A stretch of DNA of 62,678 nucleotides, from the NCBI GenBank assembly GCA_036274335.1, contig DASUFW010000307.1:1-62678 (forward strand), read 5' to 3'. Shown here in pieces: positions 12,497 to 39,573 of this stretch. Source of the DNA: Burkholderiales bacterium. Its GTDB lineage: Bacteria; Pseudomonadota; Gammaproteobacteria; Burkholderiales; SG8-39. Made by a program: the position numbers and the translations under genes. Numbering within the stretch: the stretch's first letter is position 1; every line of letters begins with the position of its first letter. Below the pieces are notes generated by a model that saw only the letters and a list, made by a program, of their open reading frames with translations, was not told the origin of the DNA and did not search any database.

Positions 12497-12585
12497 GGAC
12501 GGGCGCCCTTGCGGCGGCGCAGCAGAGGGCGCGGATTATAGCCCAAAGGCGGAACTTGACAGGGACTCGTCAGGTCGCTGCCCGC

Positions 12586-12906: not shown

Positions 12907-12914
12907 CGATGCTC

Positions 12915-14327: not shown

Positions 14328-14356
14328 GAACAGTTGGACCAGCGCGGCCGCGCGGT

Positions 14357-19837: not shown

Positions 19838-20479
19838 CTAGGGCATCTGCCGACAGACGGTGTACACGTTGGTGCCGGTCTCGGCGTACGCGGCGGGCAC
19901 CGAGGTGCCATCCACGGCCGGGCTGGGCGAGCTCTGCGCCAAGGCCCGCACGCTGCCCGTGGCGCCGTCCCCGTCGTCCATCTGCACGTCGACCGCCAGG
20001 GCGATCTTGTCCGGCAGGCTTGTCGAGCAGGCCATCAGCTGGCTCAGGCCGCCGAGCGTCGAGCCACCGGCGGCATCGCCGGTCTGCACGCCGATGATTC
20101 CCGACACCGCGTTGAACGGCTGCCTCTGCCCAGCGCCGACGATGAAGCCTGCCCGGCGCAGGTGGTCCCACCAGAGGCGCGATTCTCCCGAGCCGGCGCT
20201 CGCGTTGTAAGTGCCGCCGAGGATGCCGTCGCCGTTTCCGGGCGTCGCGCCCGTCCAGCGCGTCGCCCCCAGGTCGTCTCCGGGGATCGCGCGATAGCGA
20301 TCCTGGTAGCCGTGGTAGGCCGCGGAAATCCCGGAGAAGTCGGCGATCGCGCCTTTGACCTTCGCCTGCGCGATCAACTCCTGGCCCTTCAGGATGCCGC
20401 CGAGCAGCAGCCCGATGATGACCAGCACGATGGCGACCTCGACGAGGGTGAAGCCGGATTGGCGGCGCCGGGCGGCCAT
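19838..20479 (-). CDS. Type IV pilin, paralog 2 (prepilin-type N-terminal cleavage/methylation domain)
   Basis: ATG at 20479 preceded by AAGGAA. Leader MAARRRQSG followed by FTLVEVAIVLVIIGLL. C-terminal Cys pair. About 70% identical (by eye) to the upstream pilin. Confidence 0.85.
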   Translation of the reverse strand: MAARRRQSGFTLVEVAIVLVIIGLLLGGILKGQELIAQAKVKGAIADFSGISAAYHGYQDRYRAIPGDDLGATRWTGATPGNGDGILGGTYNASAGSGESRLWWDHLRRAGFIVGAGQRQPFNAVSGIIGVQTGDAAGGSTLGGLSQLMACSTSLPDKIALAVDVQMDDGDGATGSVRALAQSSPSPAVDGTSVPAAYAETGTNVYTVCRQMP

Positions 20480-20498: not shown

Positions 20499-20528
20499 AA
20501 AAAAAAGGGCTGGTCCGAGACCAGCCCT
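20499..20528 (-). terminator. Rho-independent terminator between the two pilin genes
   Basis: On the minus strand: AGGGCTGGTC-tcg-GACCAGCCCT (perfect 10-bp stem, 20506..20528) followed by T8 (20499..20506). Confidence 0.7.
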
Positions 20529-20547: not shown

Positions 20548-21189
20548 CTACATCGCGCGGCAGGCGACGTAGGTGTTGGTGCCCGTTTCCGCATAGCTCG
20601 CGGGCGGCGTGCTGCTGGCGTCGACCGTCTGATTGGGCGAAGTCTGCAGCAGCGCGCGCACCGAGCCCGCGTTGGAGGAGCCGTCGTCCACCTGCACGTC
20701 GACCGCGATGGCGATCTTGTCCGGCAGGTTCGCCGAGCAGATGATCAGGCCCGAGAATCCGCCGAGCGTGGTGCCGATGGTGGCTTGGGCGTCGCCGGTC
20801 TGCACGCCGATCATCCCTGCGACCGCGTTGAAGGGCTGCTGCGTGCCGTTTCCGGCCACGAAGCCCGCGCGCCGCAGGTGGTCCCACCACAGCCGGGACT
20901 CGTCGGTGACGGTCGTGCTGTTGTAGGCGCCGGTGACCACGCCATTGCCGTTTCCGGCCGTGGCGCCCGTCCAGCGCGTGGCGCCCGGGTCGTCGCCCGG
21001 GATGGTGCGATAGCGGTCCTGATAACCGTGGTAGGCCGCCGAAATCCCGGAGAAGTCCGCGATGACGTTCTTGATCTTCGCCTGCGTAATCATCTCCTGG
21101 CCCTTCAGGATGCCGCCGAGCAGCAGCCCGATGATGACCAGCACGATGGCGATCTCGACCAGTGTGAAGCCTTTTTGTCGCGCTTTCAT
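20548..21189 (-). CDS. Type IV pilin, paralog 1 (probable major pilin)
   Basis: 213 aa. Leader MKARQKG followed by FTLVEIAIVLVIIGLL with Glu5. AAGGAG lies 8 nt upstream of the ATG. C-terminal Cys...Cys region. A terminator follows directly. Confidence 0.9.
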   Translation of the reverse strand: MKARQKGFTLVEIAIVLVIIGLLLGGILKGQEMITQAKIKNVIADFSGISAAYHGYQDRYRTIPGDDPGATRWTGATAGNGNGVVTGAYNSTTVTDESRLWWDHLRRAGFVAGNGTQQPFNAVAGMIGVQTGDAQATIGTTLGGFSGLIICSANLPDKIAIAVDVQVDDGSSNAGSVRALLQTSPNQTVDASSTPPASYAETGTNTYVACRAM

Positions 21190-21232: not shown

Positions 21233-21247
21233 GCAACATTCATGCCC
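21233..21247 (-). promoter_or_regulatory. Candidate sigma-54 (-24/-12) promoter for the pilin genes
   Basis: The minus strand reads GGGCATGaatgTTGCg, with GG and GC spaced 12 nt apart as in TGGCAC-N5-TTGC. It lies about 45 nt upstream of the pilin ATG. rpoN and a sigma-54 activator are both in the window. Confidence 0.55.
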
Positions 21248-21290: not shown

Positions 21291-21314
21291 AAAAAACCGT
21301 CGAAGATCCGACAG
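21291..21314 (-). terminator. Weak hairpin plus T6 after the 239-aa gene
   Basis: Minus strand CTGTCG-gatctt-CGACGG (6-bp stem with one G-U pair) followed by TTTTTT, just after the stop at 21320. Confidence 0.3.
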
Positions 21315-21319
21315 GAGCG

Positions 21320-22039
21320 TCAATGTTTCGACGCCGACCGGTGCTCCAGTTCCTCCAGCCGCTGCTTGAGGAACTGGCGCTCGCCCGGATCCTGCAGCTT
21401 GCCGCTTTCGAGCAATCCACCAATCATGATTTTCGCAGCCTCCAGCTCGTTCATATCCTCGGCGATGAAAATTTGCATTTGCCTGGCCCACAGGGGAATG
21501 CTCGGGTCAGTGGTCAGGCGCTCCAGGTCGGCGGCGTAGCGGCGGGCCAGCGGCAGGTCCCTCAGCCGGTGCTTCGCCACGTAGGCCGCCTGGGCGAGCC
21601 ACTGCCAGCGGCGGTTCGGGTCTTTCAGGAAGGCCTGGTGGACGAAGTCCAGCATGAGCCGGATCCGGCCGGGGTCGCCCGCCTCCGCGTAAACCCGGAC
21701 CGCCGAGAACAAGGCATAGCTGCTCCTGGGGTCCGCGTCCAGGATCGCCTGGAGCCAGTCACGAAGCCGGTGGTAATCGAGGCGCTGATAGGGGAGGGAG
21801 TTCCCGGCCCCGAGGTCGAAGGCCTGTACGTACAGCATGGCGAGGCGCGCACCCGCGGCCGGCTCGCCGAGGCTGGCTGCCCGCAGCGCCAGCCCACGCG
21901 GCGCCGGCGGAAGATCGCCGGCGGCCGTCGCAAGCGGCGGACGATGCGCCTGCAGGGCGACCTGCGCGGCGAGCGCACCTCCCAGGAACGTCCAGATCCA
22001 GCCCGGGACCTGCGAAAGCGGTCGCTCGCGGTCGCTCAC
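21320..22039 (-). CDS. Membrane-anchored protein of unknown function (helical, repeat-like periplasmic part)
   Basis: GTG at 22039 overlaps the permease stop (GTGA). 239 aa with one N-terminal hydrophobic helix (PGWIWTFLGGALAAQVAL). I recognise no family. The upstream part of the long ORF is Arg-rich noise. Confidence 0.6.
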   Translation of the reverse strand: MSDRERPLSQVPGWIWTFLGGALAAQVALQAHRPPLATAAGDLPPAPRGLALRAASLGEPAAGARLAMLYVQAFDLGAGNSLPYQRLDYHRLRDWLQAILDADPRSSYALFSAVRVYAEAGDPGRIRLMLDFVHQAFLKDPNRRWQWLAQAAYVAKHRLRDLPLARRYAADLERLTTDPSIPLWARQMQIFIAEDMNELEAAKIMIGGLLESGKLQDPGERQFLKQRLEELEHRSASKH

Positions 22040-22800
22040 AGGTTGCGGCGCTGGAAGTCGAACAGTCCGGCGGCGAGCAGCAGGGCGCCATAGGCGGCGA
22101 GGGAAAGCAGGACCAGACCGTATTCGCCCGCCGGCGGCGCACCGTAGAGCAGCCATTCGCTGCGGGTCGCCGCGCCCAGTCTCGGCAGGAGATAGGCGAC
22201 GCCGTCGACCGCCCACCGCGACAGCGTCTGCGTCCAGCCCTCTTCGGACAGCGGACCGTGCGCCAGCAACTGGATGGAAGCGATGGTGCGCCCGAGCAGG
22301 TAAAGGCCGACGCTCGCCGCCATCGCCGGCAGCACGCTCGCCAGCGTCATCGCGAAAAACAGCGTGGCCGCCGCGACCAGCAGCAGCTCCAGCGCGAACG
22401 AGATGCCCCAGAGCGCGACCGCCGGCGCAGGGCACCACAGCAGAAGCGGCAGCGCGTAGAACGCCGCGAGCGCGAGCCCCACCGCCCCATAGCCGCCGAG
22501 CTTCCCGAGGTAGTAGGCGCGCCGCGACAGCGGCAGCGCGAGCGCGAGTTCCAGGACCTTGTCGCTGGATTCACGTGCGACGCTGGACGCGATATGGGTG
22601 GCGAGCAGGAAGACGCCGCCCGCGCGCAGCAGCGCCGCCGTCGCCGCGGCCTCCAGCTCGCGGCCCTCGATGAGCGCGACCTGGGACAGGAAAGCGGCGA
22701 GCCCGAGCGTCGCCGCGAGCAGCCCGCAAGCGAGCCACGGCAGGCCGGAGCGGCGAGCTTCGAGCGTCGCAGCGCGGGCAAGGAGGAGGGCGGGGGGCAT
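22036..22800 (-). CDS. ABC-2 type permease-like membrane protein
   Basis: 254 aa with about six hydrophobic helices and a NosY/ABC-2-like architecture. Coupled to the downstream gene by a GTGA overlap. Confidence 0.6.
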   Translation of the reverse strand: MPPALLLARAATLEARRSGLPWLACGLLAATLGLAAFLSQVALIEGRELEAAATAALLRAGGVFLLATHIASSVARESSDKVLELALALPLSRRAYYLGKLGGYGAVGLALAAFYALPLLLWCPAPAVALWGISFALELLLVAAATLFFAMTLASVLPAMAASVGLYLLGRTIASIQLLAHGPLSEEGWTQTLSRWAVDGVAYLLPRLGAATRSEWLLYGAPPAGEYGLVLLSLAAYGALLLAAGLFDFQRRNL

Positions 22801-22848: not shown

Positions 22849-24573
22849 ATGCAAGCCGATCTCCCGGAGACCGCGCCCCCGGCGCGCCTGCCGCAGGCCG
22901 TCTGGGCCTTCAGCCAGCGCTACTGGCGGTTCGTGGTCGTCGCCATGCTCGTGCTGCTGCACGTGGTGTCGCTGCGCGGCGAGGCCGACGATGGCGCGCG
23001 CGTGCTGATGATCGCGCACCTCGGCCTGGTGCTGCTGTGGCAGCCGCTGCTGAAGGCCGAGCGCCGCATGTCGCTCGCGCAGACCGCGCTGATCGCGGCC
23101 TTCGCGGCGTCCCTCGTCCTCTGGCTGAACGGCTGGTTGCTCGCCCTGTGGACCGTGATCCTGGCCGGCCTGGTCGGCGGCAAGGTGTTCCTGCATCAGG
23201 CGCGGTGGCAGCGCCGCTTCTACCTGCTGATGCTCGTGTACCTGCTGGCGCTGCTGGTGGTGATCGTGCTTCCGCAGATCGCGCCCCGCAACGAGATCGA
23301 TCCGGCCATCCACGGCTATGCCGCCTGGGGGCTGCCGGTGATCTTCGTCGTCATGGCGCTGATCCCGACCGAGGCCGATCCGGCCGAATCCGCGCAGGTC
23401 ATCGATTATTTCTACAGCGTGTTCCTGATGCTCATGCTGGGCGTGGTCATCCTGGGCTGCTTCGCGTTCATGATGCTCGGCCGTACGGGCTACCTGGAGG
23501 CGCTCACCTACATCGTCTTCATCATCGCCGGCCTGCTGCTGGTCGTCGGCCTGGCGTGGAATCCGCGCACGGGCTACGCGGGGCTGAACGTCTTCGTGTC
23601 CCGGTACCTCTTCTCCATCGGCCTGCCGATCGAGCAATGGCTGCAGTACCTGGCGCGGCAGTCGCACGCGGAGCCCTCGCCCGACCGCTTCATCGCCGAG
23701 GGCGTCGCGGCGCTCGCGCGGCTGCCGTCGGTACAGGGCGCGGCCTGGCGATCCGGCGGCCGGCACGGCGAGGCCGGGCAGCGCACGCCCTATGCGGTGG
23801 AGTTCGAGAGCGCCGATCTCGCGCTCACCATCTATTCGCGCTATCGCACCAGTCCTGCGCTGCACGGCCACCTGCGCCTCCTCGGCCAGCTGCTGAGCGA
23901 GTTCTATCTCGCCAAGCTCCGCGAGCGGGCGCTGCGCCAGGCGAGCTACCTGGAGGCGGTGCATGAGACCGGCGCTCGCGTGACGCACGACGTCAAGAAC
24001 CTCCTGCAGTCGCTCAATGCCCTGTGCTCGGTCGCGCTGGCCGAGCGCGGGGACTCCCCGGAAGCCATTGCGCTGGTGCGCCGGCAGCTCCCCGCCATCT
24101 CGCAGCGGCTGGCCGCCACGCTGGACAAGCTGCAGCGGCCCGGCGAGGTGGCCGACGCCCGCGCGGCGGCGGCCGCGTGGTGGGACGCCCTGCGCCGCCA
24201 GTACGAGGATCGCGGCGTGCAGTTCGAGGCGCACGGGCTCGAGGACCTGTACCTGCCGCGCGGGCTGTTCGACAGCGTCGCCGACAACCTGCTGCAGAAC
24301 GCGCTCGCCAAGCGCGTCGAGCAGCCCGACCTGCACGTCACGGCGAGATTGGAGGGCGGGCGCAATGCCGAATTGCGGGTGCGCGACACAGGACGCGCGG
24401 TGCCCGCGGAGGTCGCGTCGTCCTTGTTCCGCGGACCGGTCCAGTCGGCGAACGGGCTGGGCATCGGGCTCTATCAAGCCGCCCGGCAGGCACAGGCCGG
24501 CGGTTATCGATTGCGACTCGCTTCCAACCGGGACGGCGACGTGTGCTTTGCGCTTGCGGTGGAGGCGGGTTAG
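22849..24573 (+). CDS. Sensor histidine kinase with a large polytopic N-terminal domain (PilS/PrsK-like architecture)
   Basis: ATG at 22849. About 8-9 hydrophobic helices in the first 330 aa. H-box VTHDVKNLLQSL, N-box DNLLQNA, G-boxes VRDTGR and GLGIGL. Confidence 0.85.
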   Translation: MQADLPETAPPARLPQAVWAFSQRYWRFVVVAMLVLLHVVSLRGEADDGARVLMIAHLGLVLLWQPLLKAERRMSLAQTALIAAFAASLVLWLNGWLLALWTVILAGLVGGKVFLHQARWQRRFYLLMLVYLLALLVVIVLPQIAPRNEIDPAIHGYAAWGLPVIFVVMALIPTEADPAESAQVIDYFYSVFLMLMLGVVILGCFAFMMLGRTGYLEALTYIVFIIAGLLLVVGLAWNPRTGYAGLNVFVSRYLFSIGLPIEQWLQYLARQSHAEPSPDRFIAEGVAALARLPSVQGAAWRSGGRHGEAGQRTPYAVEFESADLALTIYSRYRTSPALHGHLRLLGQLLSEFYLAKLRERALRQASYLEAVHETGARVTHDVKNLLQSLNALCSVALAERGDSPEAIALVRRQLPAISQRLAATLDKLQRPGEVADARAAAAAWWDALRRQYEDRGVQFEAHGLEDLYLPRGLFDSVADNLLQNALAKRVEQPDLHVTARLEGGRNAELRVRDTGRAVPAEVASSLFRGPVQSANGLGIGLYQAARQAQAGGYRLRLASNRDGDVCFALAVEAG

Positions 24574-25352
24574 GGCAAGAGGCCGGCGGCGACCAACCTG
24601 CCGTAGAGCTCGCCCGCGGTGATCCACGTCATCTGGTGGTCGAACTCGCCGTTGGTCGGTCCGGCGGGGTTTGGCGTGTGCCAAACGAATACCCCATCCC
24701 CATTCAGGTTCGCGGCTTCGTCGGCTCCGCCGGTACCCTGGTTGCCTGTCTTCCCGGTGGCGAAGATGACCGCGACTACAGTCGTCTGATTGGTAAGAGG
24801 GGGCTGCGGCGGCGAAGCGCCACAGGTCGTGCTGGTAATGCCGGTCGCCGTCCGGCAAACGACGAGATCGTTCGGCTGGCAGGTCAGGCCGTTGAGCCGC
24901 AAGTTGGTGGCCGAGGTGAAATGCGGCAACGAAGAGGTGCCGGCGCATCCGGTGAGGGCACCGGCAGACACGGCATAGCGTATGCGATTGCCCCAGGCGT
25001 CGACAGCGTAGCCCCCCGCGTCCGTGATCTGAAAGCCGATCGCGCGCGCGGGGAGGAACCCCCCCGTGCCGCTGGGATAGGCTCCCGTGCACGTACCGCC
25101 GCCGGCGGGTGCTTCATCGCCCGCGCTCGTGCTAGTCGCCGGACAGGGCAGGCGGCCATTCGCGACCGCGAAGGCGAGCAGGAGGCTGCGCGCCGCCTCG
25201 ATCCGCTGCCGGGTCTCCTCGAAGTTTCGCTGGTCCGTCTGCGCCGAGAGCGTGTACAGCCCGGCCGCCAGCAGCAGGCTGACGATCGCGAACACGACCG
25301 CGAGTTCCGTGAGCGTGAATCCGCGTTCGTGCCGCTGATCGCGCATGTGCAT
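24570..25352 (-). CDS. Minor pilin-like protein (prepilin-type N-terminal methylation domain)
   Basis: Leader ...RHERG followed by FTLTELAVVFAIVSLLL with Glu5. Six Cys and a GRLPCP motif. Start at 25352 (TGATG junction with the upstream stop) or at 25346. Confidence 0.8.
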   Translation of the reverse strand: MHMRDQRHERGFTLTELAVVFAIVSLLLAAGLYTLSAQTDQRNFEETRQRIEAARSLLLAFAVANGRLPCPATSTSAGDEAPAGGGTCTGAYPSGTGGFLPARAIGFQITDAGGYAVDAWGNRIRYAVSAGALTGCAGTSSLPHFTSATNLRLNGLTCQPNDLVVCRTATGITSTTCGASPPQPPLTNQTTVVAVIFATGKTGNQGTGGADEAANLNGDGVFVWHTPNPAGPTNGEFDHQMTWITAGELYGRLVAAGLLP

Positions 25353-27178
25353 CAGGGCAGATAGTAGGTGCGCACCGGCGAGGTCGACGTGTCGGCGACG
25401 ACCTGCGGGTGGTTGTTCACCGTAGTCAGCAGCAGCGACGTCCCGGTCCAGTCCACCAGGATCACGCGATCGTTCCACGGTCCCTTGGGGTGGGTAACGT
25501 TCGTGAGGCGCCGCATTCGCTGCTGCTCATAGAAGGTTCCGCCGTTCTCGTTGTCGCCTTCGAGGTAGTCCGACAGATTGCCGTTCGGCCTGCTCGCATT
25601 GCTGAGGCTCGCGCCGCCCAGCACCATCAGCGCGCGGATGTTGCAGTAGTTCGCACCGCTGCCGCAGCCGAGGCCTTCATTGAATCGCAGGCAGTTGGTG
25701 CTGCCGCAGCCAAAGGAGGAAAGGCTGTAGGCAGTGTTCTTCTGGGCCGCCGCGTAGTACAGCACGCGCTGCCACTGGTTGCGCGTGAACCACCCGTAGG
25801 TCGGGTCGGTCGACTTCACCAGGGGGTGGTCGGTGATGATCGCGCGCTCGAGGCGCAGCCTGAACTCGCCCTGCGTGTCCCAGCTCATCGCGTCGATGTT
25901 CGGCATCGTCGCCGAGACGCGCACGGTGACCGAGCCGTCGGAATTCATGGTCGCGCTGGGCGCATTGGTCGCGATCGGCGACCAGGGCGGGGTGCCCGAG
26001 TCATCGCGCGCGTAGGCCTGGAAGCGCGCGCCGTCGAGCGCGCGCAGGCCCATGGCCATGTTCGTGAACGTGGCGGTCATTCGCAAGACGATCGGCCGCC
26101 AGGGCTCGGCCGTGTACTCGTGGTAGACGCCCTCGCAAATGCGCACGTCATTCGTCGACTCCCAGGAGCAAGTCTGCGAAACGATGTAGCCGTAGCCCTG
26201 AGTCTCCACGGCGTTCCCAGGCGTCGACTGGTAAGCCACCATCGAAGAAGCCTGGTTCACGGGCAGCAAGCCCTGGCACGGATAGCTGGGGTCCGGAGGG
26301 GACTGGCACAGGGCCGCACTGCCCTGGTAGCTGGACGTGCCTGGATTCGAGAACGGCGCCGGATAGGGGTAGAGCGGGCTGCTCGAGGGAATGCCGGAGT
26401 AGTTCGAGTTGGTATAGACCGTGCGCAATGCCGGCGCGATCTCACGCTGGATTCGATCGGCGACGGCCGCTTCGATCGACGGCATGAGGTCGGCGGCCCT
26501 GACCCGCACCGCCTGGTCGTTGAACGTCTGACCCGGGCGACTGGTGACGAAGCTCGCCGACACGGCGTTCTCGCATTCGAGGTAGTTGCGCACGTCGAGC
26601 GGCCCCGCAACCGGCCGAACCTGCGCCCACGCCGCGGCGCCGCCGCAGGCCGCGGTCGTCATGCGCTCCCCTGGCGCAATGATGAGCGCCACCGAATCGT
26701 TGGCGGCTCCGTCGATCGTCAGCTGCCCTTGGGAGTCGGAGTTGATGACGGTGGGCGTCGTCGAGTTCGGCAGCGCCCAGCCCGGCGATACCACGTACCA
26801 GAGCGGCTCGCCCGCCGTGTCGGTCAGCTTGTCCAGCCCCAGCGTGCGCCAAGGCAGCCGGCCGACCGCAGGCAGGGTGCAGTTGGCGGCGGCGATGCCT
26901 TCGTTCGCGGTGTTGTAGTAGCCGAATGGTTCGGGGCAGGGCAGGCGGCCGGGGTTCGCCTCGCCGGCCTGCGCGGCCAGCTGTGCCACATAGCCGACGA
27001 GCGCCAGCTTCGCGCGCGCCAACATCACTGCATTCTGATTCCGGTCCACCGCGACGAACCGGCTCGCCGCGTTCAGCCGGCTGGTGACCACGTAGGCGAA
27101 CACCAGCACGATCACCGCGACCAGCGCGAGCAGCCCAAACCCGCGCTGCGAGCGAACGCTACCGCTTCGCCGGATCAC
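25352..27178 (-). CDS. Large Cys-rich pseudopilin-like protein lacking Glu5 (candidate tip/adhesin subunit)
   Basis: 608 aa with a GTG start. N-terminus ...SQRG followed by FGLLALVAVIVLVF has Ala at +5. GRLPCP motif, 12 Cys, and a repeated YLE..N...ND(Q/R)-V module. Confidence 0.75.
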   Translation of the reverse strand: MIRRSGSVRSQRGFGLLALVAVIVLVFAYVVTSRLNAASRFVAVDRNQNAVMLARAKLALVGYVAQLAAQAGEANPGRLPCPEPFGYYNTANEGIAAANCTLPAVGRLPWRTLGLDKLTDTAGEPLWYVVSPGWALPNSTTPTVINSDSQGQLTIDGAANDSVALIIAPGERMTTAACGGAAAWAQVRPVAGPLDVRNYLECENAVSASFVTSRPGQTFNDQAVRVRAADLMPSIEAAVADRIQREIAPALRTVYTNSNYSGIPSSSPLYPYPAPFSNPGTSSYQGSAALCQSPPDPSYPCQGLLPVNQASSMVAYQSTPGNAVETQGYGYIVSQTCSWESTNDVRICEGVYHEYTAEPWRPIVLRMTATFTNMAMGLRALDGARFQAYARDDSGTPPWSPIATNAPSATMNSDGSVTVRVSATMPNIDAMSWDTQGEFRLRLERAIITDHPLVKSTDPTYGWFTRNQWQRVLYYAAAQKNTAYSLSSFGCGSTNCLRFNEGLGCGSGANYCNIRALMVLGGASLSNASRPNGNLSDYLEGDNENGGTFYEQQRMRRLTNVTHPKGPWNDRVILVDWTGTSLLLTTVNNHPQVVADTSTSPVRTYYLP

Positions 27179-27596
27179 CGCGCTCGACCTTCAGCTCCCC
27201 CGGGCCGATCGGGTCCTTGATCTCACCGGTCGCGCGGTCGACTTGCTGCCCCACGCGCACGTTGGCAAAGCTTCCCTGCTCCCCGATGCCGATGCGCACC
27301 CGGCTGGGATCGCCGCTCCGGCGCACGCGAACGCCCTCCGGGCGCACGCCGTCCGGGATCGGATTGCCGTCCAGCCAGACCGTCGACTTGCCCTGCGAGC
27401 GCGTCACCACGCCGTCGAGTCGCGTAGTCGGCGAGATTGCCAGCGGTGCGGTGCGATCCTGGATGCCCGCCTTGCGCCGCGCGTCCAGCGCCTCGCGCTG
27501 CTCTGGGGTGAAGAACAGACGGCCGAACTGCTGAGCCCCGGCGAGCGTCGGGCTGAAGAGCCCCAGGGCGAGCAGCGCAAGCGCAAGCCGCCTCAC
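27159..27596 (-). CDS. Small secreted protein (positional analog of MshK/PilP)
   Basis: GTG at 27596 overlaps the upstream stop (GTGA). 145 aa with signal peptide RRLALALLALGLFSPTLAGA. No family recognised. Confidence 0.6.
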   Translation of the reverse strand: MRRLALALLALGLFSPTLAGAQQFGRLFFTPEQREALDARRKAGIQDRTAPLAISPTTRLDGVVTRSQGKSTVWLDGNPIPDGVRPEGVRVRRSGDPSRVRIGIGEQGSFANVRVGQQVDRATGEIKDPIGPGELKVERGDPAKR

Positions 27597-28201
27597 GATT
27601 TCGCCCCGTGGTCGACGATGGTGATGAGGTCGATCTCGCACTCCGCCCGCAGGCGCGGCGCCAGGGTCGGCACGTTGGCGGGCTGGCCGGTGCGAGTCAC
27701 CGTGCAGCGGCGCACGGCGTAATACGCCTTGCCGGAGGCGCGCAGCGCCCACAGGAAGGCGAACAGGTCGCCCTCGTGCAGCAGCGCGAGGTCCACGCGC
27801 ATCATGCTGGCGTAGAAGTCCACCGTGCCCGGCTTGCCCGGCACCGAAGCGAGCGCGCGCTGCCGCTCGACGCGGTAGCGCAGGTCGGGAAGCTCGAGGT
27901 CGCCGCGGATGCGCTTCATCGAATCGGCCCACTCCAGGCGCTGCTCCTCGCCCAGGATGCCGAGCTCCCTGAGCTGCTGGTAGACCTTCAGCTTCTCGCG
28001 GACCTCGCGCTCCTCCTCGGCGATGCGCATCAGGCGCTCCTTCACCTGAACACGCTCCAGGCGCGCGGCCGCGAGCACCGCCGCATCGGCGGCGTGCTTG
28101 TCCTTGGACCAGACGACGAACGAGACGCCGGCCACCAGCAGCACGACGAAAGCGAGCAGCGGGAGGACGAGCTGGCGGACTTCCCGGGCGGTCAGGTTCA
28201 C
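27593..28201 (-). CDS. PilO/MshJ-like bitopic pilus assembly protein
   Basis: GTG at 28201 overlaps the upstream stop. 202 aa with one TM (LVLPLLAFVVLLVAGVSFVVW), then a coiled-coil and a globular periplasmic part. Confidence 0.6.
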   Translation of the reverse strand: MNLTAREVRQLVLPLLAFVVLLVAGVSFVVWSKDKHAADAAVLAAARLERVQVKERLMRIAEEEREVREKLKVYQQLRELGILGEEQRLEWADSMKRIRGDLELPDLRYRVERQRALASVPGKPGTVDFYASMMRVDLALLHEGDLFAFLWALRASGKAYYAVRRCTVTRTGQPANVPTLAPRLRAECEIDLITIVDHGAKS

Positions 28202-29739
28202 GGCAGGTTCCGCGCGAGGAAGATGGTGAAGCGCGGCGCCTCGCCGCCGGACGTCGAGCCGATGTCGCCCGACAGCGTTCCTTCGGAAGTGACGTCGAAC
28301 GGCAGCTGCGTGCGCTCCACCTGGTAGACGCCGCTCTGGCCGAGCGCTTCCGCAAAGCGCTGCACTTCCCCCGTGATCGCCCGATAGTCCGAACGCGCCA
28401 TGCCCGGCACCCGCCCGGAGACCTCGAGGCGCTCGACCTGGGATCCCGGCCCCGACTTCGTCGCCGCGCTCGCCGGCGGCGGCTTTGCGCCTGCGCCGCC
28501 GGACGCCCGGTCGACCTGCCACACGAGCGAGTCGATCTCGATCTGCGGGAATTGGTCGAGCACCTGCGACAGGTAGCGCAGCGTGGGCTCGGGCGCGCCG
28601 CTGCGCTGCGCGATCTTCGTGAACTCGAGCACCGTCGCGCGCAGGTTGTCGACCGTGGTGTAGGTAACCGGGAAAGCATCCGCCTTGCGCCGGTATTCGT
28701 CCTGGTCGGCGCGCGAATCCGCGCGCACCTGGGTGGTTTCCGACCGAATGCCGGCGATGTCGAGCCAGATCGCGCCCGCGTAGAGCGCGCAGGCGGCGAA
28801 GGCGAGTGCGCCGGCCGCCACCAGCCCGCGCTGCATCTGCCAGAGGAAGTACCCGCGCCGCTCCTCGCGCCGCGCGAACTGCTCGCGCGGCGGCCGCCGG
28901 GCGGCCAGCTGCAGATACAGTTGCTCCGCGCCCATGTCCTGCGGCGCTTCCCGGATGCCGACGCGCCGCGCCGCTTCGGCCTGGTCGATCGTGACGAAGG
29001 ACAGGCGCGCATCCGAGACCAGCGTCCGCTCGAAGACCGCCTTGCGGCCGGGCGGCGCGATGACGACGACGTGCACGGGCGGGCCTTCGCGCGGCAGCAC
29101 CCGAAGCGTCGAGAGGTATTGCGCGAGCCGCCCGGTCTCCGAACGCACGAAGGCCGCGAACGCCTCCGGCGTCATATCGGCCGCGCGCTCGAGCCGCGCG
29201 AAGCGCAGCCTGCCGTTGTCGATGAAGCACTGGCGCAGGCCGGCGCGATTGGCGTTCACCACGAAGCAGCGGCCGCCCCGCACCCCGAGGCGCGCCGCCA
29301 GCGCCGGCGCGAGCAGCGGCACCGAGAACATGCCGGCGAGCTTCGCTTCCGATTCCGCCAGCGCATCCAGCCAGGGCGCGATGCGCTGGGTATTGGTGAA
29401 GGACGTGAGCAGCAGGCGCTCGTTGCGCCGCTCGCCGCTCACCTGTCCCAGCGACAGCGCGGTCGCAAGCCGGGTGTCGCGGTAGCGCTGGGCGAGGCGC
29501 CGCCGCAGGACCTGCTCGCGGTCCGAGCCGCGCAGGTACGGAATCAGCTCCTCGTGGAAGTCCTCGCCCGCCTGGTCGACCACCACCGAAAACAGCGCGC
29601 CGCGATGCCCCCCCAGATACTCGCGGAACGCGGAGGCCCCGGTGTCGTCGGACGGGAACTTGGCGTCCAGCGTCAGGCGACCCCGGCGCCACGCATAGAC
29701 GCGGTGCTCGTCGGCGGTGAAATAGGCGATGCGCTTCAT
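28198..29739 (-). CDS. PilM-PilN fusion-like pilus assembly protein (MshI-like)
   Basis: 513 aa: a cytoplasmic part of about 290 aa, one TM (GLVAAGALAFAACALYAGAIWL) and a periplasmic part of about 190 aa. Position and topology match MshI. Not verified by motif. Confidence 0.65.
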   Translation of the reverse strand: MKRIAYFTADEHRVYAWRRGRLTLDAKFPSDDTGASAFREYLGGHRGALFSVVVDQAGEDFHEELIPYLRGSDREQVLRRRLAQRYRDTRLATALSLGQVSGERRNERLLLTSFTNTQRIAPWLDALAESEAKLAGMFSVPLLAPALAARLGVRGGRCFVVNANRAGLRQCFIDNGRLRFARLERAADMTPEAFAAFVRSETGRLAQYLSTLRVLPREGPPVHVVVIAPPGRKAVFERTLVSDARLSFVTIDQAEAARRVGIREAPQDMGAEQLYLQLAARRPPREQFARREERRGYFLWQMQRGLVAAGALAFAACALYAGAIWLDIAGIRSETTQVRADSRADQDEYRRKADAFPVTYTTVDNLRATVLEFTKIAQRSGAPEPTLRYLSQVLDQFPQIEIDSLVWQVDRASGGAGAKPPPASAATKSGPGSQVERLEVSGRVPGMARSDYRAITGEVQRFAEALGQSGVYQVERTQLPFDVTSEGTLSGDIGSTSGGEAPRFTIFLARNLP

Positions 29740-29740
29740 G

Positions 29741-30946
29741 TCAGAACTTCATCTTGCTGATGGTGTCGTAGACGGGACCCAGCACCGACAGCATGACCCA
29801 GCCGAGGATCGCCCCGAGCACCACGGTGAGCAGCGGCTCGACCATGGCCTGCAGCCTGCCGATCGCCTCGCGCACCTCGCGATTGTAGAAGTAGCTGACG
29901 TTCAGAAGCGCCGTGTCCAGGCCGCCCGTATTCTCGCCGATGCGAAGCATGCGGATGACGAGCGGCGGGAACAGTCCCGCGTCCTGGAACGCCACGGTGA
30001 GGTTCTTGCCCTCGGCGATCTGCTGGCCGGCGTCGCGCAGCGCCTGCTCCACGGGCCGGTTGCCGACGATTTCCTCGCAGCTGCGGATCGCATCGAGCAC
30101 CGTGATGCCCGAGGAGTACATCATGGCGAAGCTCGAGGCGAAGCGCGAGAGCACGATGCGCTTCATGATCGGACCGACCAGGGGCATCGAGATCTTGTAG
30201 CGGTCCAGGGCATAGGCGACGGCCGGGTTGGTGCGCGCCGCGAACTTGATGCCGAAGAAGACCACGAACGGCGCTGCGAGCACCAGCCACCAGAAGTCGA
30301 CGCAGAAGTTGGAGACCGCGATCAGGATGCGCGTCTGCATCGGGATGTCCTGACCCATGTTGCGGATGAAGCCGGTCATCTGCGGCACGAGATAGATCAT
30401 CAGGAAGAAGGTCACCAGCAGCACGATCGACCCGACGAACGCCGGGTACATGATGAGCTTCTTGGTCTGCGCGGCGAGCTCGTCCTCCCACTTCAGCGAC
30501 TCGGTCAGGCTCTTCAGGACCTCGGCCAGCCGCCCCGTCTGCTCGCCGGAGCGGACCAGGCTGACGAATACCTTGCTGAACACTTCCGGGTACTCCGCAA
30601 GCGCCTGCGAGAGGTTCTTGCCGCCCTCGATGGCCTCCAGCAGGCCGGAGATGATTTCGCGGAAGCGCCGGTTCTCCGCGCTCTCGCGCAGGTCGACGAG
30701 TCCCTCGACGACCGGCACGCCGGCGTTCGCCAGCTGCTCGAGGTGAAAGCAGAAGTTGATCAGGTCCTGGCGCGAGATACGCGTGCCGCCGATCAGCTTC
30801 GCCGTCTGGCTGGTCGGCGCGCCGTAGACCAGGTCGAGGTTCATGCGCAGCAGGCGCTGCTCGAGGTCGAACGGGTTGACGGCCTCGGTGCGCCCCAGCA
30901 CGCTCTTGCCTTCCGCGTCGATGGCCTTGTACGTGTAGAGGGGCAT
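29741..30946 (-). CDS. mshG: Type IV filament platform protein (GspF/PilC family, MshG-like)
   Basis: 401 aa with a duplicated GspF-type domain pattern and three TM segments. Follows the assembly ATPase gene. Confidence 0.9.
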   Translation of the reverse strand: MPLYTYKAIDAEGKSVLGRTEAVNPFDLEQRLLRMNLDLVYGAPTSQTAKLIGGTRISRQDLINFCFHLEQLANAGVPVVEGLVDLRESAENRRFREIISGLLEAIEGGKNLSQALAEYPEVFSKVFVSLVRSGEQTGRLAEVLKSLTESLKWEDELAAQTKKLIMYPAFVGSIVLLVTFFLMIYLVPQMTGFIRNMGQDIPMQTRILIAVSNFCVDFWWLVLAAPFVVFFGIKFAARTNPAVAYALDRYKISMPLVGPIMKRIVLSRFASSFAMMYSSGITVLDAIRSCEEIVGNRPVEQALRDAGQQIAEGKNLTVAFQDAGLFPPLVIRMLRIGENTGGLDTALLNVSYFYNREVREAIGRLQAMVEPLLTVVLGAILGWVMLSVLGPVYDTISKMKF

Positions 30947-30977
30947 GGCTGTCGCCGATCGGGGCGCCCGGGGGCGC

Positions 30978-32687
30978 TCAGGCCATGCGGTCGGTGAGGT
31001 CGACCACGCGCATCAGCTCGTCGAGGCCGGTGTGGCCCGCCCGGACCATGCGTACGCCGTCGTCGGCGAGTGTCTTGAAGCCCTTGGCGCGCGCGGCCGT
31101 GAGCAGCTCGCGCGCCGTGGCGCGGCGGGCGATCAGCTCGTCCAGCCCGCCGTCGATCTTGAGGATCTCCAGGATGGACTGCCGGCCGCGATATCCCTGG
31201 TAGTCGCACTGGTCGCAGCCGACCGCGCGGAAGAGCGGCGAATTCTCGGACGCACCCATGCCCAGCATGCGCCGCTCCCGGGCATCGGGTTCGTACGACT
31301 GCCGGCAGGTGCGGCACAGCCGGCGCACGAGCCGCTGCGCCACGATGCCGATGATGTTGCCGGACATGACGTCGGGCACGATGCCGATGTCCAGCAGCCG
31401 TGGAATCGCGCCCACGGCGGAATTGGTATGCAGCGTCGAGTACACCTGGTGCCCGGTCATCGCCGCGCGGAACGCCATCTCCGCCGTGTCCTTGTCGCGG
31501 ATCTCGCCGACCAGAATGGCGTCCGGGTCCTGGCGCATCAGCGCGCGCACGCCGTTGGCGAAGTCGAGCTTCGCCGCTTCCGACACCGAGGTCTGGCGAA
31601 TCAGGGTCATCGGATACTCGACCGGGTCCTCCAGCGTCATGATGTTGACGCCGTCCGAGTTGATGTGGTTCAGGATCGAGTAGAGGGTCGTCGTCTTGCC
31701 GCTGCCCGTCGGGCCGGTGACCAGGATGATGCCCTCGGGCCGCGCGATCATGCGCTTCAACAGCTCCAGCGCGCCGTCCTCGAGGCCGAGCCGCTCGAGC
31801 GGAACGATGCCCTTCTGCCGGTCGAGAATGCGCAGCACGATGTTCTCGCCGTGCGTGGTCGGCAGGCTCGCGACGCGGAAGTCGACCACGCGGCCCGACA
31901 TGGTGGCGGAAATGCGCCCGTCCTGCGGTGCGCGCGTCTCGGCGATGTTCATCTTCGACATGACCTTGACGCGCACCGCCATGGCCGGCCAGTAGGTCTT
32001 GTGCAGGGACCGGATCTGCCTCAGCACCCCGTCGATGCGGTAGCGGATGCGCAGGAAGTTCTGCTCGGGCTCGAAGTGGATGTCCGAGGCGCCTCGGTCG
32101 ACCGCGTCGGCGAGAAGCGCCGAAATGAGGCGCACCACCGGCTGGGAGTATTCGTCCCCTTCGGCGATGGTGGCGTAGTCGACCTCGCCCGTCTCGATCT
32201 CGCGCAGGATGCCGTCGATCGAGAACTCGTGGCCGTAATAGTGCTCGACCGCGCGCTCGATCTCGGAGTCGCCCGCCAGGCGCAGCTCGATCTCGACGTC
32301 GCCCTTCAGGTGGGCGCGCAGCTGGTCGACGGCGACGATGTTGTTGGTGTCGGCGAGCGCGACGATGAATCTGTTGGCCTGGCGGTCCAGCGCCACCGGG
32401 AACATGTGGTAGCGCCGCGCCATGTCGCGCGGCAGCATCTTGAGCGCCGCCGGATCCACGATGATGTGCGCCAGATCCACCGACTGCAGTCCGAGCTTTT
32501 CGGAAAGCGCGTCGCGCAGCGTTGCTTCGGAAACGAACCCGAGCTGCACCAGCAGCCGCCCCACCGGCGCCTTGGACTTCGTTTGCTCCAGCAGGGCGAT
32601 CCGCAGCTGGTCTTCGGTCAGGATGCCCTGGTCGATCAGGATCTGCCCGATATGGCGTTTCGCCTGCGGATTGGTGGGCGAGTTCAT
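30978..32687 (-). CDS. mshE: Type IV filament assembly ATPase with an MshE-type N-terminal domain
   Basis: 569 aa. Tandem MshEN-like motifs at aa 11-65, Walker A GPTGSGKTT, a GspE-type Asp/His box, and a tetracysteine (CRTC...CDQC). Confidence 0.9.
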   Translation of the reverse strand: MNSPTNPQAKRHIGQILIDQGILTEDQLRIALLEQTKSKAPVGRLLVQLGFVSEATLRDALSEKLGLQSVDLAHIIVDPAALKMLPRDMARRYHMFPVALDRQANRFIVALADTNNIVAVDQLRAHLKGDVEIELRLAGDSEIERAVEHYYGHEFSIDGILREIETGEVDYATIAEGDEYSQPVVRLISALLADAVDRGASDIHFEPEQNFLRIRYRIDGVLRQIRSLHKTYWPAMAVRVKVMSKMNIAETRAPQDGRISATMSGRVVDFRVASLPTTHGENIVLRILDRQKGIVPLERLGLEDGALELLKRMIARPEGIILVTGPTGSGKTTTLYSILNHINSDGVNIMTLEDPVEYPMTLIRQTSVSEAAKLDFANGVRALMRQDPDAILVGEIRDKDTAEMAFRAAMTGHQVYSTLHTNSAVGAIPRLLDIGIVPDVMSGNIIGIVAQRLVRRLCRTCRQSYEPDARERRMLGMGASENSPLFRAVGCDQCDYQGYRGRQSILEILKIDGGLDELIARRATARELLTAARAKGFKTLADDGVRMVRAGHTGLDELMRVVDLTDRMA

Positions 32688-32736
32688 CCAGCCTTCATGA
32701 TACAGAAAGCCCCAAAAAACCGGGCTTTAGGAACTG

Positions 32737-34113: not shown

Positions 34114-34117
34114 GGCG

Positions 34118-35857: not shown

Positions 35858-35965
35858 GGGAACCCGATTTCTCCCCCGAGAAACTGAGCATAGCATGGTC
35901 GCGCCTGAAGAAAAGCGGCTAAGCGACTGTCGCGTGAGAGTTTTCAGGAATTTGCAAATGGGGCC

Positions 35966-37424: not shown

Positions 37425-38829
<1,405 letters not shown>

Positions 38830-38849
<20 letters not shown>

Positions 38850-39573
38850 GCACGCAACGCAGGTAGGCGCGCTCGAGATTGGGCTCCGCGTAGCGCGCGC
38901 ACAGCTCGGCGGGCGAGCCGCGGAAGCGCAGCCGGCCGCGCTCGAGCACGGCGATCCCGGAGCACAGCTCCTCGACGTCCGAGAGCACATGCGAGGTGAA
39001 CAGCAGCGTGCGCCCCTCGCGGCGCAGCCGCGCCAGCACTGCCTTGACCGCCAGGCGGCTGGCGGGGTCGAGCCCGCTCATCGGCTCGTCGAGCACGGTC
39101 AGTTCCCGGGCGAGGAGGAACCCGCCGGCGAGGCCGAGCTTCTGCGTCATGCCCTTGGACAGTTCGCGGACCGGGCGCTCGAGGGCGTCGGCCTCGAGCG
39201 CGAGCTCGTCCAGCAGGGCGCGCGCCTCGGCCTCCCGGTACGCGCCGCCGCCCAGCTGCACGGTCATCGCCAGGAACTCGCGCCCCCGCAGGTAGTGCGG
39301 CGGCAGGAACCGCTCGGGCACGTAGGCCAGGCGCACGCGGGACTCGGCCCGGCTGCTCACCACGTCGAAGATCTCGATGCGCCCGGCGTCGAAGGCGCAG
39401 AAGTCAAGCATGCATTTGAGCAGCGTGGTCTTGCCGGCGCCGTTCGCGCCCACCAGCCCGAACGCCTCGCCCTGCGCGACCTCGAGGTCGACGCCGCGGA
39501 GCGCCTCCCGCGCGCCGAAGCGCTTGGTGAGGCCCGTCACGCGCACGGCGGCGCCGGTCACGGCTCTGTCCAC
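38830..39573 (-). CDS. ABC transporter ATP-binding protein (ABC-2/DRR-type)
   Basis: 247 aa with a GTG start. Walker A GANGAGKTT, signature LSKGMTQKL, Walker B LTVLDEP. First gene of the pilus operon. Confidence 0.85.

What the first reader, a model, noticed from the sequence alone, without database searches (positions are those of the whole stretch)
21320..22800. ABC transporter split across the pilus locus: ATPase at one end, permease plus an unknown membrane protein 16 kb away next to the pilins
Seen: the ATP-binding subunit (38830..39573; GANGAGKTT, LSKGMTQKL) is the first gene of the long operon. The only candidate membrane partner is a 254-aa ABC-2-like permease with about six helices (22036..22800), which lies just upstream of the pilin genes. 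It is translationally coupled (GTGA overlap) to a 239-aa protein (21320..22039). That protein has one N-terminal TM helix and an all-helical, repeat-like remainder, and I recognise no family for it. Established knowledge: in Myxococcus xanthus an ABC transporter encoded inside the pil cluster (PilH ATPase, PilI ABC-2 permease, PilG of unknown function) is required for type IV pilus biogenesis. Inference: these three genes could form an analogous pilus-dedicated exporter, with the 239-aa protein as its accessory subunit. The substrate is unknown.
Basis: partly seen in the sequence, partly recalled or inferred. Interest (0 to 1): 0.6.

Follow-up and report, generated by a model that had tools for sequence, protein, structure and literature searches.

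The report
Pilus-linked ABC transporter, PilGHI-like
Three genes scattered through an MSHA-like type IV pilus locus encode a transporter ATPase, a membrane permease and a membrane-anchored helical-repeat protein; they are distant relatives of the Myxococcus PilH/PilI/PilG pilus transporter, whose mechanism is still unknown, and they travel with this pilus locus in hundreds of beta- and gammaproteobacterial species.

Summary
The permease (22036-22800, minus strand) and the 239-aa protein (21320-22039, minus strand) overlap by GTGA just upstream of two pilin genes. An ABC ATPase (38830-39573, minus strand) heads the pilus gene run 16.8 kb away. One correction: a plus-strand sensor kinase (22849-24573) splits the locus, so it is not one long operon.

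- In 201 genomes of the same order, the 239-aa protein occurs in 70 and the ATPase ortholog in 66, all 66 among those 70. None of the other 131 genomes has the ATPase.
- The permease lies directly upstream of the 239-aa gene in 30 of 30 loci.
- In other gammaproteobacterial lineages the order is permease, accessory, pilin, ATPase. The ATPase moved but stayed in the locus.
- Profile comparisons link the 239-aa family to Myxococcus PilG (probability 95-96%, E 2e-9) and the permease to PilI (94.8%). Controls score 0.1-30%.
- The modelled permease is closest to NosY. The accessory protein is one membrane helix plus a TPR-like domain.

I read it as a divergent PilGHI-type, pilus-dedicated ABC-2 complex attached to an MSHA-like pilus. 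What it transports or acts on is still inferred, not shown.

The parts
38830..39573 (-). ABC ATPase (247 aa), the PilH-like nucleotide-binding subunit. It is the first gene of the minus-strand pilus gene run and is divergent from mlaF.
   Evidence: Walker A, signature and Walker B motifs read. Pfam ABC_tran hit at 4.6e-21; DrrA/NodI/GldA-like. The ortholog is present in 66 of 70 genomes that have the accessory protein and in 0 of 131 that lack it. It is 35% identical to Myxococcus PilH.
22036..22800 (-). ABC-2 (type V) permease (254 aa, six TM helices), PilI-like with a NosY-like fold.
   Evidence: Marginal Pfam ABC2_membrane_3/_2 hits. AlphaFold pLDDT 86.8. Best Foldseek match is NosY (7o12_E), TM-score 0.68-0.70, E 1.8e-5. 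hhalign against PilI gives 94.8%, E 5e-8; the control against a GldF-like paralog gives 29.5%.
21320..22039 (-). Accessory protein (239 aa): an N-terminal TM helix, a Pro-rich linker and a TPR-like solenoid. It is a remote homolog of Myxococcus PilG and its start overlaps the permease stop (GTGA).
   Evidence: Sequence read. AlphaFold model. Only generic TPR matches in the PDB. hhalign against the PilG family gives 95.1-96.3%, E 3.4e-8 to 2e-9, over about 200 columns. Controls against the locus's own TPR family give 0.1-3.2%.
21297..21314 (-). Terminator-like hairpin immediately after the accessory gene.
   Evidence: 7-pair stem followed by TTTTTT. A weak consensus match only.
21233..21247 (-). 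Sigma-54-type -24/-12 element (GGCAT-N5-TTGC) upstream of the first pilin gene.
   Evidence: Read by eye in the sequence. Not tested further.
20548..21189 (-). Major-type pilin 1 (213 aa).
   Evidence: N_methyl / GFxxxE domain. A pilin lies downstream of the accessory gene in most related loci.
20506..20528 (-). Strong intrinsic terminator after pilin 1.
   Evidence: 10-pair stem (7 GC pairs) followed by a T7 run.
19838..20479 (-). Pilin 2 (213 aa), a paralog of pilin 1.
   Evidence: 71% identity to pilin 1.
22849..24573 (+). Polytopic sensor histidine kinase. It is divergent from the permease and convergent with the minor pilin gene.
   Evidence: GC-frame analysis, ORF, HATPase_c hit. The arrangement with the kinase divergent from the permease is conserved in most loci.
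37425..38849 (-). Sigma-54-dependent response regulator. Its start overlaps the end of the ATPase gene by 20 nt.
   Evidence: Pfam Response_reg, Sigma54_activat and HTH_8 hits. PrsR-like but below the family cut-off. ATG at 38849 read.
24570..37420 (-). MSHA-like pilus machinery, in order: AAA_22 (MshM-like), secretin, TPR protein, MshE-type ATPase with MshEN domain, T2SSF platform protein, a 513-aa protein, a protein of about 202 aa, a protein of about 145 aa, a 608-aa pseudopilin-like protein, and a minor pilin.
   Evidence: Pfam hits, ORFs, and synteny in 20 genomes from different families.

Best explanation
The three genes encode one PilGHI-type ABC-2 (type V) complex that belongs to the MSHA-like type IV pilus locus. 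Its parts are a dimer of the ATPase (38830-39573), a dimer of the six-helix permease (22036-22800), and the 239-aa accessory protein (21320-22039). The accessory protein is anchored in the inner membrane by one helix and most likely presents its TPR-like domain to the periplasm.

Shown:
- The three genes are co-conserved and always lie inside this locus.
- The permease has a NosY-like fold.
- The accessory protein and the permease are remote homologs of Myxococcus PilG and PilI.
- The module is tightly linked to the major pilin gene.

Inferred:
- ATP hydrolysis in the cytoplasm drives conformational changes in the permease. These changes are passed to, or used together with, the TPR-domain partner to handle the adjacent major pilin or to prime pilus assembly. 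Examples would be releasing or chaperoning pilin at the inner membrane, or engaging the assembly platform.
- This follows what is reported for PilGHI, which is required for piliation and pilin export in M. xanthus.
- It also follows the NosDFY precedent, in which a NosY-type ABC module powers a periplasmic partner.
For: Co-occurrence:
- The accessory protein is present in 70 of 201 genomes of the same order.
- The ATPase ortholog (E<1e-50) is present in 66, all of them within those 70, and in 0 of the other 131.
- In 41 of 41 cases where both lie on one contig, the ATPase is on the same strand, 10-20 kb upstream.

Adjacency and synteny:
- The permease lies directly upstream of the accessory gene in 30 of 30 loci.
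- Synteny of the whole locus holds in 20 genomes from different families.

Independent rearrangement:
- In Thiotrichales, Ectothiorhodospiraceae and Chromatiales-type genomes the order is permease, accessory, pilin, ATPase.
- Of 80 named loci, 42 have this order and 21 have the split order.
- In loci with this order that reach the head of the cluster, no ATPase lies there (L082, and L071 up to the locus end). The ATPase therefore moved rather than duplicated.

Orphan status:
- There is no second P0002-like permease in the assembly.
- Of the three closest ATPase paralogs, two lie directly beside their own ABC-2 permease, and the third sits in an HlyD-like efflux operon.

Homology to PilGHI (Myxococcus pilA-pilG-pilH-pilI locus fetched; PilG identity confirmed):
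- Accessory family against PilG family: 95.1-96.3%, E 3.4e-8 to 2e-9, about 200 collinear columns.
- Permease family against PilI: 94.8%, E 5.2e-8.
- Controls: 0.1-3.2% against TPR proteins and 29.5% against a GldF-like permease.

Fold: best match is NosY of NosDFY, TM-score 0.68-0.70.

Literature:
- pilA-pilG-pilH-pilI form one operon encoding an ABC exporter complex (PMC3546991).
- PilGHI is necessary for pilus assembly and PilA export (PMC3924187, PMC3724824, both citing Wu et al. 1998).
Against: - There is no experimental evidence for any member of this proteobacterial family.
- Co-occurrence is confounded. The whole locus is inherited as a block at a fixed chromosomal site (between mlaF and kefC) in the Burkholderiales-type genomes, so the Fisher p-value overstates independence. 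The alternative gene order in other lineages is the main independent support.
- The ATPase is 35% identical to PilH. That equals its identity to paralogs in its own genome, and PilH's best hit in this genome is a GldA-like ATPase.
- Topology of the accessory protein is only weakly indicated. Net flank charge is +0.6 on the N side against 0.0 on the C side. The periplasmic assignment leans on the Sec-like N-terminus of PilG.
- About 22 of 72 genomes with an MshI-like 513-aa protein lack the accessory protein, so MSHA-type pili do not generally need this module.
- In this genome the permease and accessory genes are transcribed separately from the ATPase and possibly from the pilin.
- No complex was modelled.
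Confidence: 0.7

Rival explanations
1. The ABC module is a co-sensor for the adjacent two-component system, in the manner of Bce-type transporter/kinase pairs. The permease and accessory protein would report pilin load or envelope state to the polytopic kinase transcribed divergently from them, and so tune sigma-54-dependent pilin expression rather than take part in assembly.
For: - The kinase is divergent from the permease in most loci.
Only its HATPase_c domain was tested here.
- A sigma-54 regulator gene overlaps the end of the ATPase gene.
- A -24/-12 element precedes the pilin gene.
Against: - Several lineages keep the ATPase, permease and accessory protein but have no kinase or regulator in the locus (L038, L041, L048, L050, L053).
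- Bce-type permeases belong to the FtsX family, not to ABC-2.
- Homology to PilGHI points to a biogenesis role.
Confidence: 0.1
2. The transporter exports a non-protein substrate that the pilus needs, for example a lipid-linked glycan or another small molecule used for pilin modification or pilus function. It would work like Wzm/Wzt-type ABC-2 exporters and would not act on pilin itself.
For: - The permease has the ABC-2 / type V exporter fold shared with ABCG/ABCA-type exporters and CcmB.
- Charged residues are invariant within predicted TM helices (R59, E138, R171), which is compatible with a substrate cavity.
Against: - No glycosyltransferase or substrate-synthesis gene was seen in the conserved locus.
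- The closest fold match, NosY, belongs to a machine that works with a periplasmic partner.
- The conserved TPR-like partner suggests protein-protein interaction.
Confidence: 0.12
3. The ATPase and the permease-accessory pair are unrelated. The ATPase serves another system, for example the divergently transcribed mla genes, and the permease pairs with an ATPase encoded elsewhere. On this reading the co-occurrence only reflects shared synteny.
For: - The ATPase is divergent from mlaF in nearly all Burkholderiales-type loci.
- The assembly is 89% complete, so a partner gene could be missing.
Against: - No ATPase ortholog occurs in the 131 genomes that lack the accessory protein.
- In other lineages the ATPase sits next to the pilin, accessory and permease genes and away from mlaF.
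- mlaFED encodes its own ATPase, MlaF.
- In the streamlined genome G266 the ATPase still lies 1.4 kb from the permease and accessory genes.
Confidence: 0.04

Closest known systems
Myxococcus xanthus PilG/PilH/PilI (TC 3.A.1.144.5), the ABC module of the pilA-pilG-pilH-pilI operon
   Same: - Same three-part make-up: an ABC ATPase, a six-helix ABC-2 permease, and an accessory protein with an N-terminal hydrophobic segment plus a TPR-like domain.
- The genes are linked directly to the major pilin gene.
- Remote homology was detected for the accessory protein (95-96%) and the permease (94.8%).
   Different: - It is attached to an MSHA-like machine (MshEN-type ATPase, MshM-like AAA_22, extra TPR protein), not to a PilBTC/PilMNOPQ type IVa pilus.
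- The gene order differs: ATPase, then 16.8 kb, then permease-accessory-pilin here; permease-accessory-pilin-ATPase in other lineages; pilA-pilG-pilH-pilI in Myxococcus.
- The accessory protein is 239 aa against 303 aa and lacks the C-terminal part of PilG.
- The ATPase is 247 aa against 326 aa and lacks the C-terminal extension of PilH.
- ATPase orthology cannot be resolved.
NosDFY(L), the nitrous oxide reductase maturation ABC complex
   Same: The best structural match of the permease is NosY (TM-score 0.68-0.70, 21% identity). Both are ABC-2 modules that work with an extracytoplasmic partner rather than as plain pumps.
   Different: There is no NosD-type beta-helix protein, no NosL and no nos gene context. 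The partner here is a membrane-anchored TPR-like protein.
GldA/GldF/GldG gliding-motility ABC transporter
   Same: Both are motility or surface-organelle-associated ABC-2 transporters with an accessory membrane protein. The ATPase scores against the GldA model but below its cut-off.
   Different: A separate, complete GldA/F/G-like operon sits elsewhere in this genome (C419). Its permease matches the permease family here only weakly (29.5%). The accessory protein is not a large GldG-like protein.
PmtCD phenol-soluble modulin exporter
   Same: It is the second-best fold match of the permease (6xjh_A, TM-score 0.64) and the only weak sequence hit in the PDB (E 0.12). It is a precedent for an ABC-2 exporter that removes amphipathic helical peptides from the membrane.
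   Different: PmtCD is a Gram-positive system with no accessory TPR protein and no pilus context. The sequence match is not significant.

Membership tests
PilGHI-type pilus ABC transporter (M. xanthus, TC 3.A.1.144.5) | An ABC ATPase subunit with intact Walker A, signature and Walker B motifs. | tested here: met
   GANGAGKTT, LSKGMTQKL and LTVLDEP read. ABC_tran hit at 4.6e-21.
PilGHI-type pilus ABC transporter (M. xanthus, TC 3.A.1.144.5) | The ATPase is specifically orthologous to PilH. | tested here: inconclusive
   It is 35% identical to PilH, E 3e-36. That equals the 35.7% identity to a paralog in the same window. PilH's best hit in this genome is the GldA-like ATPase. P0003 also lacks the C-terminal extension of about 80 aa found in PilH.
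PilGHI-type pilus ABC transporter (M. xanthus, TC 3.A.1.144.5) | A six-helix ABC-2 permease homologous to PilI. | tested here: met
   hhalign of the permease family against PilI gives probability 94.8%, E 5.2e-8, over 207 columns. The control against a GldF-like permease of the same genome gives 29.5%, E 5.7e-4. PilI's top tblastn hit in the genome is this permease, although weak.
PilGHI-type pilus ABC transporter (M. xanthus, TC 3.A.1.144.5) | An accessory protein homologous to PilG (N-terminal hydrophobic segment plus TPR-like domain). | tested here: met
   Profile-profile comparison gives 95.1% (E 3.4e-8) and 96.3% (E 2e-9) over about 200 collinear columns. Controls against the locus's own TPR family give 0.1-3.2%. 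A single PilG sequence alone was not detected.
PilGHI-type pilus ABC transporter (M. xanthus, TC 3.A.1.144.5) | Genes linked to the major pilin gene. | tested here: met
   A pilin gene lies downstream of the accessory gene in most loci. In the order permease-accessory-pilin-ATPase the pilin sits between the transporter genes.
PilGHI-type pilus ABC transporter (M. xanthus, TC 3.A.1.144.5) | Required for piliation and pilin export. | not testable with these tools
   This needs deletions and pilin fractionation. For M. xanthus the requirement is reported in PMC3724824 and PMC3924187, both citing Wu et al. 1998.
PilGHI-type pilus ABC transporter (M. xanthus, TC 3.A.1.144.5) | Embedded in a type IVa pilus (PilB/T/C, PilMNOPQ) gene cluster. 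| tested here: not met
   The locus is MSHA-like: T2SSE with an MshEN domain, an AAA_22 MshM-like protein, a TPR protein and a secretin. The Myxococcus locus carries PilS/R, PilD and PilM/N. This is a feature of context, not of the proteins.
NosDFY | A NosY-type permease together with a periplasmic NosD beta-helix partner, within a nos gene context. | tested here: not met
   The fold match to NosY is the best in the PDB. No NosD- or NosL-like gene and no nos context is present.
GldAFG | A GldF-type permease with a large GldG-type accessory protein. | tested here: not met
   A separate GldA/F/G-like operon lies on contig C419. The permease family matches that GldF-like protein only at 29.5%. 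The accessory protein here is a 239-aa TPR-like protein.

The most novel reading that the evidence does not exclude
PilGHI-type modules may be an old and widespread fourth energy-using component of certain type IV filament systems. In this reading, an ABC-2 motor uses a periplasmic TPR arm to extract, chaperone or hand over major pilin subunits from the inner membrane to the assembly platform. This would be mechanotransmission rather than substrate pumping. Its recurrence next to the pilin gene in both Myxococcota type IVa pili and proteobacterial MSHA-like pili would reflect a property of these particular, large pilins.
Probability: 0.3. Interest if true: 0.7.

Novelty: new variant of a known kind. 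Interest (0 to 1): 0.55.

Why it matters
M. xanthus has been known since 1998 to need the PilGHI ABC transporter for type IV pilus formation, but nobody knows what the transporter does. It has been treated mostly as a myxobacterial or deltaproteobacterial peculiarity (PMC6060248).

This work shows a divergent version of all three parts built into an MSHA-like pilus locus. The accessory family has at least 502 matches across species-representative genomes and 713 sequence clusters at 50% identity. It spans sulfur- and iron-cycling beta- and gammaproteobacteria.

That gives the PilGHI question:
- a comparative data set of invariant residues and two gene orders that both keep the pilin gene next to the transporter genes;
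- a structural frame, namely a NosY-like permease with a membrane-anchored TPR partner;
- additional organisms in which to test it.

It also supplies a function for a large family of proteins currently labelled hypothetical.

Tried and rejected
- Pfam and NCBIfam gave nothing for the 239-aa protein.
- A profile search of PDB sequences gave only non-significant TPR hits (E about 0.09) and PmtD hits (E 0.12).
- Foldseek of the accessory model gave only generic TPR matches (E at least 0.04). The match to PilW (2vq2) at rank 12 is not specific.
- A single PilG sequence against the accessory profile failed (probability 0.65%). Only profile-profile comparison detected the relation.
A narrower alignment worked.
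- M. xanthus is not among the control genomes of the genome search. I reached the Myxococcus pil locus by querying with a PilA sequence recalled from memory. The database returned a 99% identical Myxococcus PilA, and its locus was then fetched.
- The positive-inside analysis of the accessory protein was too weak to settle its topology.
- My simple hydropathy scan missed the weakly hydrophobic TM helix of the accessory protein.
- I considered that the small genomes G266 and G463 keep the transporter without the pilus. I rejected this because both still encode the MshI-like 513-aa protein elsewhere on the same contig.
- A model of the complex could not be made.
Full report
**1. What is in the sequence**

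The window is about 70% G+C, so I used codon-position GC to separate real genes from spurious ORFs.

On the minus strand the permease gene (22036-22800, 254 aa) and the 239-aa gene (21320-22039) both show the real-gene pattern. The GTG start of the second overlaps the TGA stop of the first (…CTGTGAGC…).

Downstream, in order, come:
- a short terminator-like hairpin (21314-21297);
- a -24/-12-type element (GGCATgaatgTTGC);
- pilin 1 (20548-21189);
- a strong terminator (20528-20506);
- pilin 2 (19838-20479).

The ATPase (38830-39573) has intact Walker A, signature and Walker B motifs and is DrrA/NodI/GldA-like.

Between the ATPase and the permease lie these minus-strand genes:
- a sigma-54 response regulator, whose start overlaps the ATPase gene by 20 nt;
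- an MshM-like AAA_22 protein;
- a secretin;
- a TPR protein;
- an MshE-type ATPase with an MshEN domain;
- a T2SSF platform protein;
- four proteins with no family assignment (513, about 202, about 145 and 608 aa);
- a minor pilin.

The real gene there is a plus-strand polytopic histidine kinase. The locus is therefore not a single operon, and the permease-accessory pair is a separate transcription unit divergent from the kinase gene.

**2. Do the three genes belong together?**

The 239-aa protein has more than 2,300 close relatives, all unnamed or labelled 'hypothetical'.

In a sample of 201 genomes of the same order:
- 70 have the 239-aa protein, nearly always in a single copy.
- The ATPase ortholog (E<1e-50, at least 43% identity) is present in 66 genomes, all of them among those 70.
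- None of the other 131 genomes has it. Those genomes give only paralog-level hits, E 1e-41 to 1e-44, in three cases.
- The four exceptions are incomplete genomes (two), a partial ATPase hit at a contig end (one), and one 99%-complete genome (G041) that I cannot explain.
- In all 41 cases where both genes lie on one contig, the ATPase is on the same strand, 10-20 kb upstream.

The permease is directly upstream of the 239-aa gene in 30 of 30 loci. The entire gene order is conserved in 20 genomes from different families: mlaF divergent from ATPase, then (regulator), AAA_22, secretin, TPR, MshE, MshG, 513, 202, 145, 608, minor pilin, (kinase on the opposite strand), permease, accessory, pilin.

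This block sits at a fixed site between mlaF and kefC, so these counts are not independent events.

The independent evidence comes from outside the order.
- In the class-level sample, 53 of 400 genomes carry the accessory protein.
- In Thiotrichales-, Ectothiorhodospiraceae- and Chromatiales-type genomes (names) the order is permease, accessory, pilin(s), ATPase, usually followed by the regulator on the opposite strand.
- Of 80 named loci, 42 have this order, 21 have the split order and 17 are too short to tell.
- In loci with this order that reach the head of the cluster, no ATPase lies there.

So the ATPase gene has moved within the locus but has never left it.

In the streamlined genome G266 the genes read ATPase, serS, permease, accessory. 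The pilus genes are still present about 22 kb away.

In this genome there is no second permease of this type. Of the three nearest ATPase paralogs, two lie directly beside their own ABC-2 permease: the pair next to the mla genes and a GldA/F/G-like operon. The third lies in an HlyD-type efflux operon.

**3. What the parts look like**

The permease model (pLDDT 86.8) has an N-terminal elbow helix and six TM helices. Its best matches among solved structures are NosY of NosDFY (TM-score 0.68-0.70, E 1.8e-5), then PmtD, then ABCG/ABCA-type exporters. This is the ABC-2 / type V exporter fold.

The accessory model (pLDDT 80.6) has a TM helix at 13-31 that contains an invariant Gln, a Pro-rich linker, and about five helical hairpins. 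It gives only generic TPR matches.

The accessory family has 713 clusters at 50% identity among 1.84 billion representatives. It has at least 502 matches across species-representative genomes.

**4. Relation to Myxococcus PilGHI**

I fetched a Myxococcus pil locus, pilS-pilR-pilA-pilG-pilH-pilI-pilD. [quoted passage not shown] Many PilG homologs are annotated as TPR proteins.

| Comparison | Probability | E-value |
|---|---|---|
| Accessory family vs PilG family | 95.1% | 3.4e-8 |
| Accessory family vs PilG family (second alignment) | 96.3% | 2e-9 |
| Either family vs the locus's own TPR protein or family (controls) | 0.1-3.2% | |
| Permease family vs PilI | 94.8% | 5.2e-8 |
| Permease family vs a GldF-like permease of the same genome (control) | 29.5% | 5.7e-4 |

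The accessory-PilG alignment covers about 200 collinear columns, from the membrane segment to the end of the repeat domain. It includes the WLQ… and …LDP… motifs.

The ATPase is 35% identical to PilH. That is no better than its identity to paralogs, so ATPase orthology is unresolved.

PilG begins with a Sec-type signal-like segment. Together with a weak positive-inside bias, this suggests that the TPR domain of the 239-aa protein is periplasmic.

**5. How it most likely works**

Shown:
- The three-gene module is co-conserved and tied to the pilin gene.
- The permease has a NosY-like fold.
- The accessory protein and the permease are homologous to PilG and PilI.

Known from the literature:
- pilA-pilG-pilH-pilI form one operon encoding an ABC exporter complex (PMC3546991).
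- PilGHI is needed for pilus assembly and PilA export or translocation (PMC3924187, PMC3724824, both citing Wu et al. 1998).
- MSH-like clusters with rearranged gene order were noted in Sideroxydans and Gallionella, with no function assigned and no ABC transporter mentioned in the passages that discuss them (PMC3770913).
- My searches found no paper describing an ABC module in such clusters.

Inferred: an (ATPase)2(permease)2 core with the membrane-anchored TPR protein uses ATP to act on the major pilin or on an early assembly step. It may work by mechanotransmission to the periplasmic TPR domain, as in NosDFY, rather than by pumping a solute.

The module is not a general requirement of MSHA-type pili. 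The MshI-like 513-aa protein occurs in 72 of 401 class-level genomes, and about 22 of these lack the accessory protein. Conversely, 50 of the 53 genomes with the accessory protein have the 513-aa protein.

**6. Rivals**

- A Bce-like co-sensor role for the adjacent kinase is weakened because several lineages keep the transporter without the two-component system.
- Export of a pilin-modifying substrate is not excluded, but no synthesis genes accompany the module.
- Mere synteny between unrelated genes is made unlikely by the alternative gene order.

**7. Verdict**

It is widespread and, as far as I could find, undescribed in this setting. Its substrate and mechanism remain untested.

Noticed in passing
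window 17551-41748 and loci L034-L053: In Burkholderiales-type genomes the whole pilus locus sits at a fixed chromosomal site. It lies between mlaFED (divergent from the ATPase gene) and a kefC-like gene, which is followed by kdsD-kdsC-lptC-lptA-lptB-rpoN. In E. coli, by general knowledge, the mla and kdsD-lpt-rpoN gene groups are direct neighbours.
   Followed up: partly
L038, L041, L048, L050, L053; L103 and L122: The two-component system is optional and mobile. Several lineages lack the kinase, the regulator or both, and then all locus genes run in one direction. In Sulfuricella sp. T08 (L103) the regulator and kinase lie between the accessory gene and the pilin gene.
   Followed up: partly
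L075 (G266) 12446-16133; L068 (G463): In two streamlined genomes of 1.5-1.7 Mb the module is dispersed. The order is ATPase, serS, permease, accessory, with no pilin next to it. The MshI-like gene lies about 22 kb away in one genome and about 500 kb away in the other. The accessory protein there also has a C-terminal extension (292-aa ORF).
   Followed up: partly
genome contig C419 11196-14730: A complete GldA/GldF/GldG-like ABC-2 operon (307-aa ATPase, 244-aa permease, large accessory protein) exists elsewhere in the same genome. It is PilH's best ATPase hit in this genome.
   Followed up: partly
L169 3749-4660 (Myxococcus PilG, residues about 215-275): The C-terminal part of PilG is absent from the 239-aa protein. 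It has a conserved motif (consensus LVxxGxLxxxPxDPLGGxxxLGxDGRxYS) that by eye resembles the conserved motif of GspG-type pseudopilin globular domains. No Pfam hit is on record for it, and I did not test the resemblance.
   Followed up: no
window 24570-24573: The stop codons of the plus-strand kinase gene and the convergent minus-strand minor pilin gene overlap, so the two genes share their last bases.
   Followed up: no
window 22036-22800 (alignment A4): The permease family has invariant charged residues. R59, E138 and R171 lie inside predicted TM helices, and the R76/E77 pair lies at the cytoplasmic end of TM2. They could line a substrate cavity or contact the accessory TM helix, which has an invariant Gln at position 26.
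   Followed up: no
genome contigs C20, C197, C367, C63: At least four further pilin-like genes lie elsewhere in the genome, which suggests further pilin or pseudopilin genes besides the MSHA-like locus. No prepilin peptidase gene lies in the locus itself.
   Followed up: no
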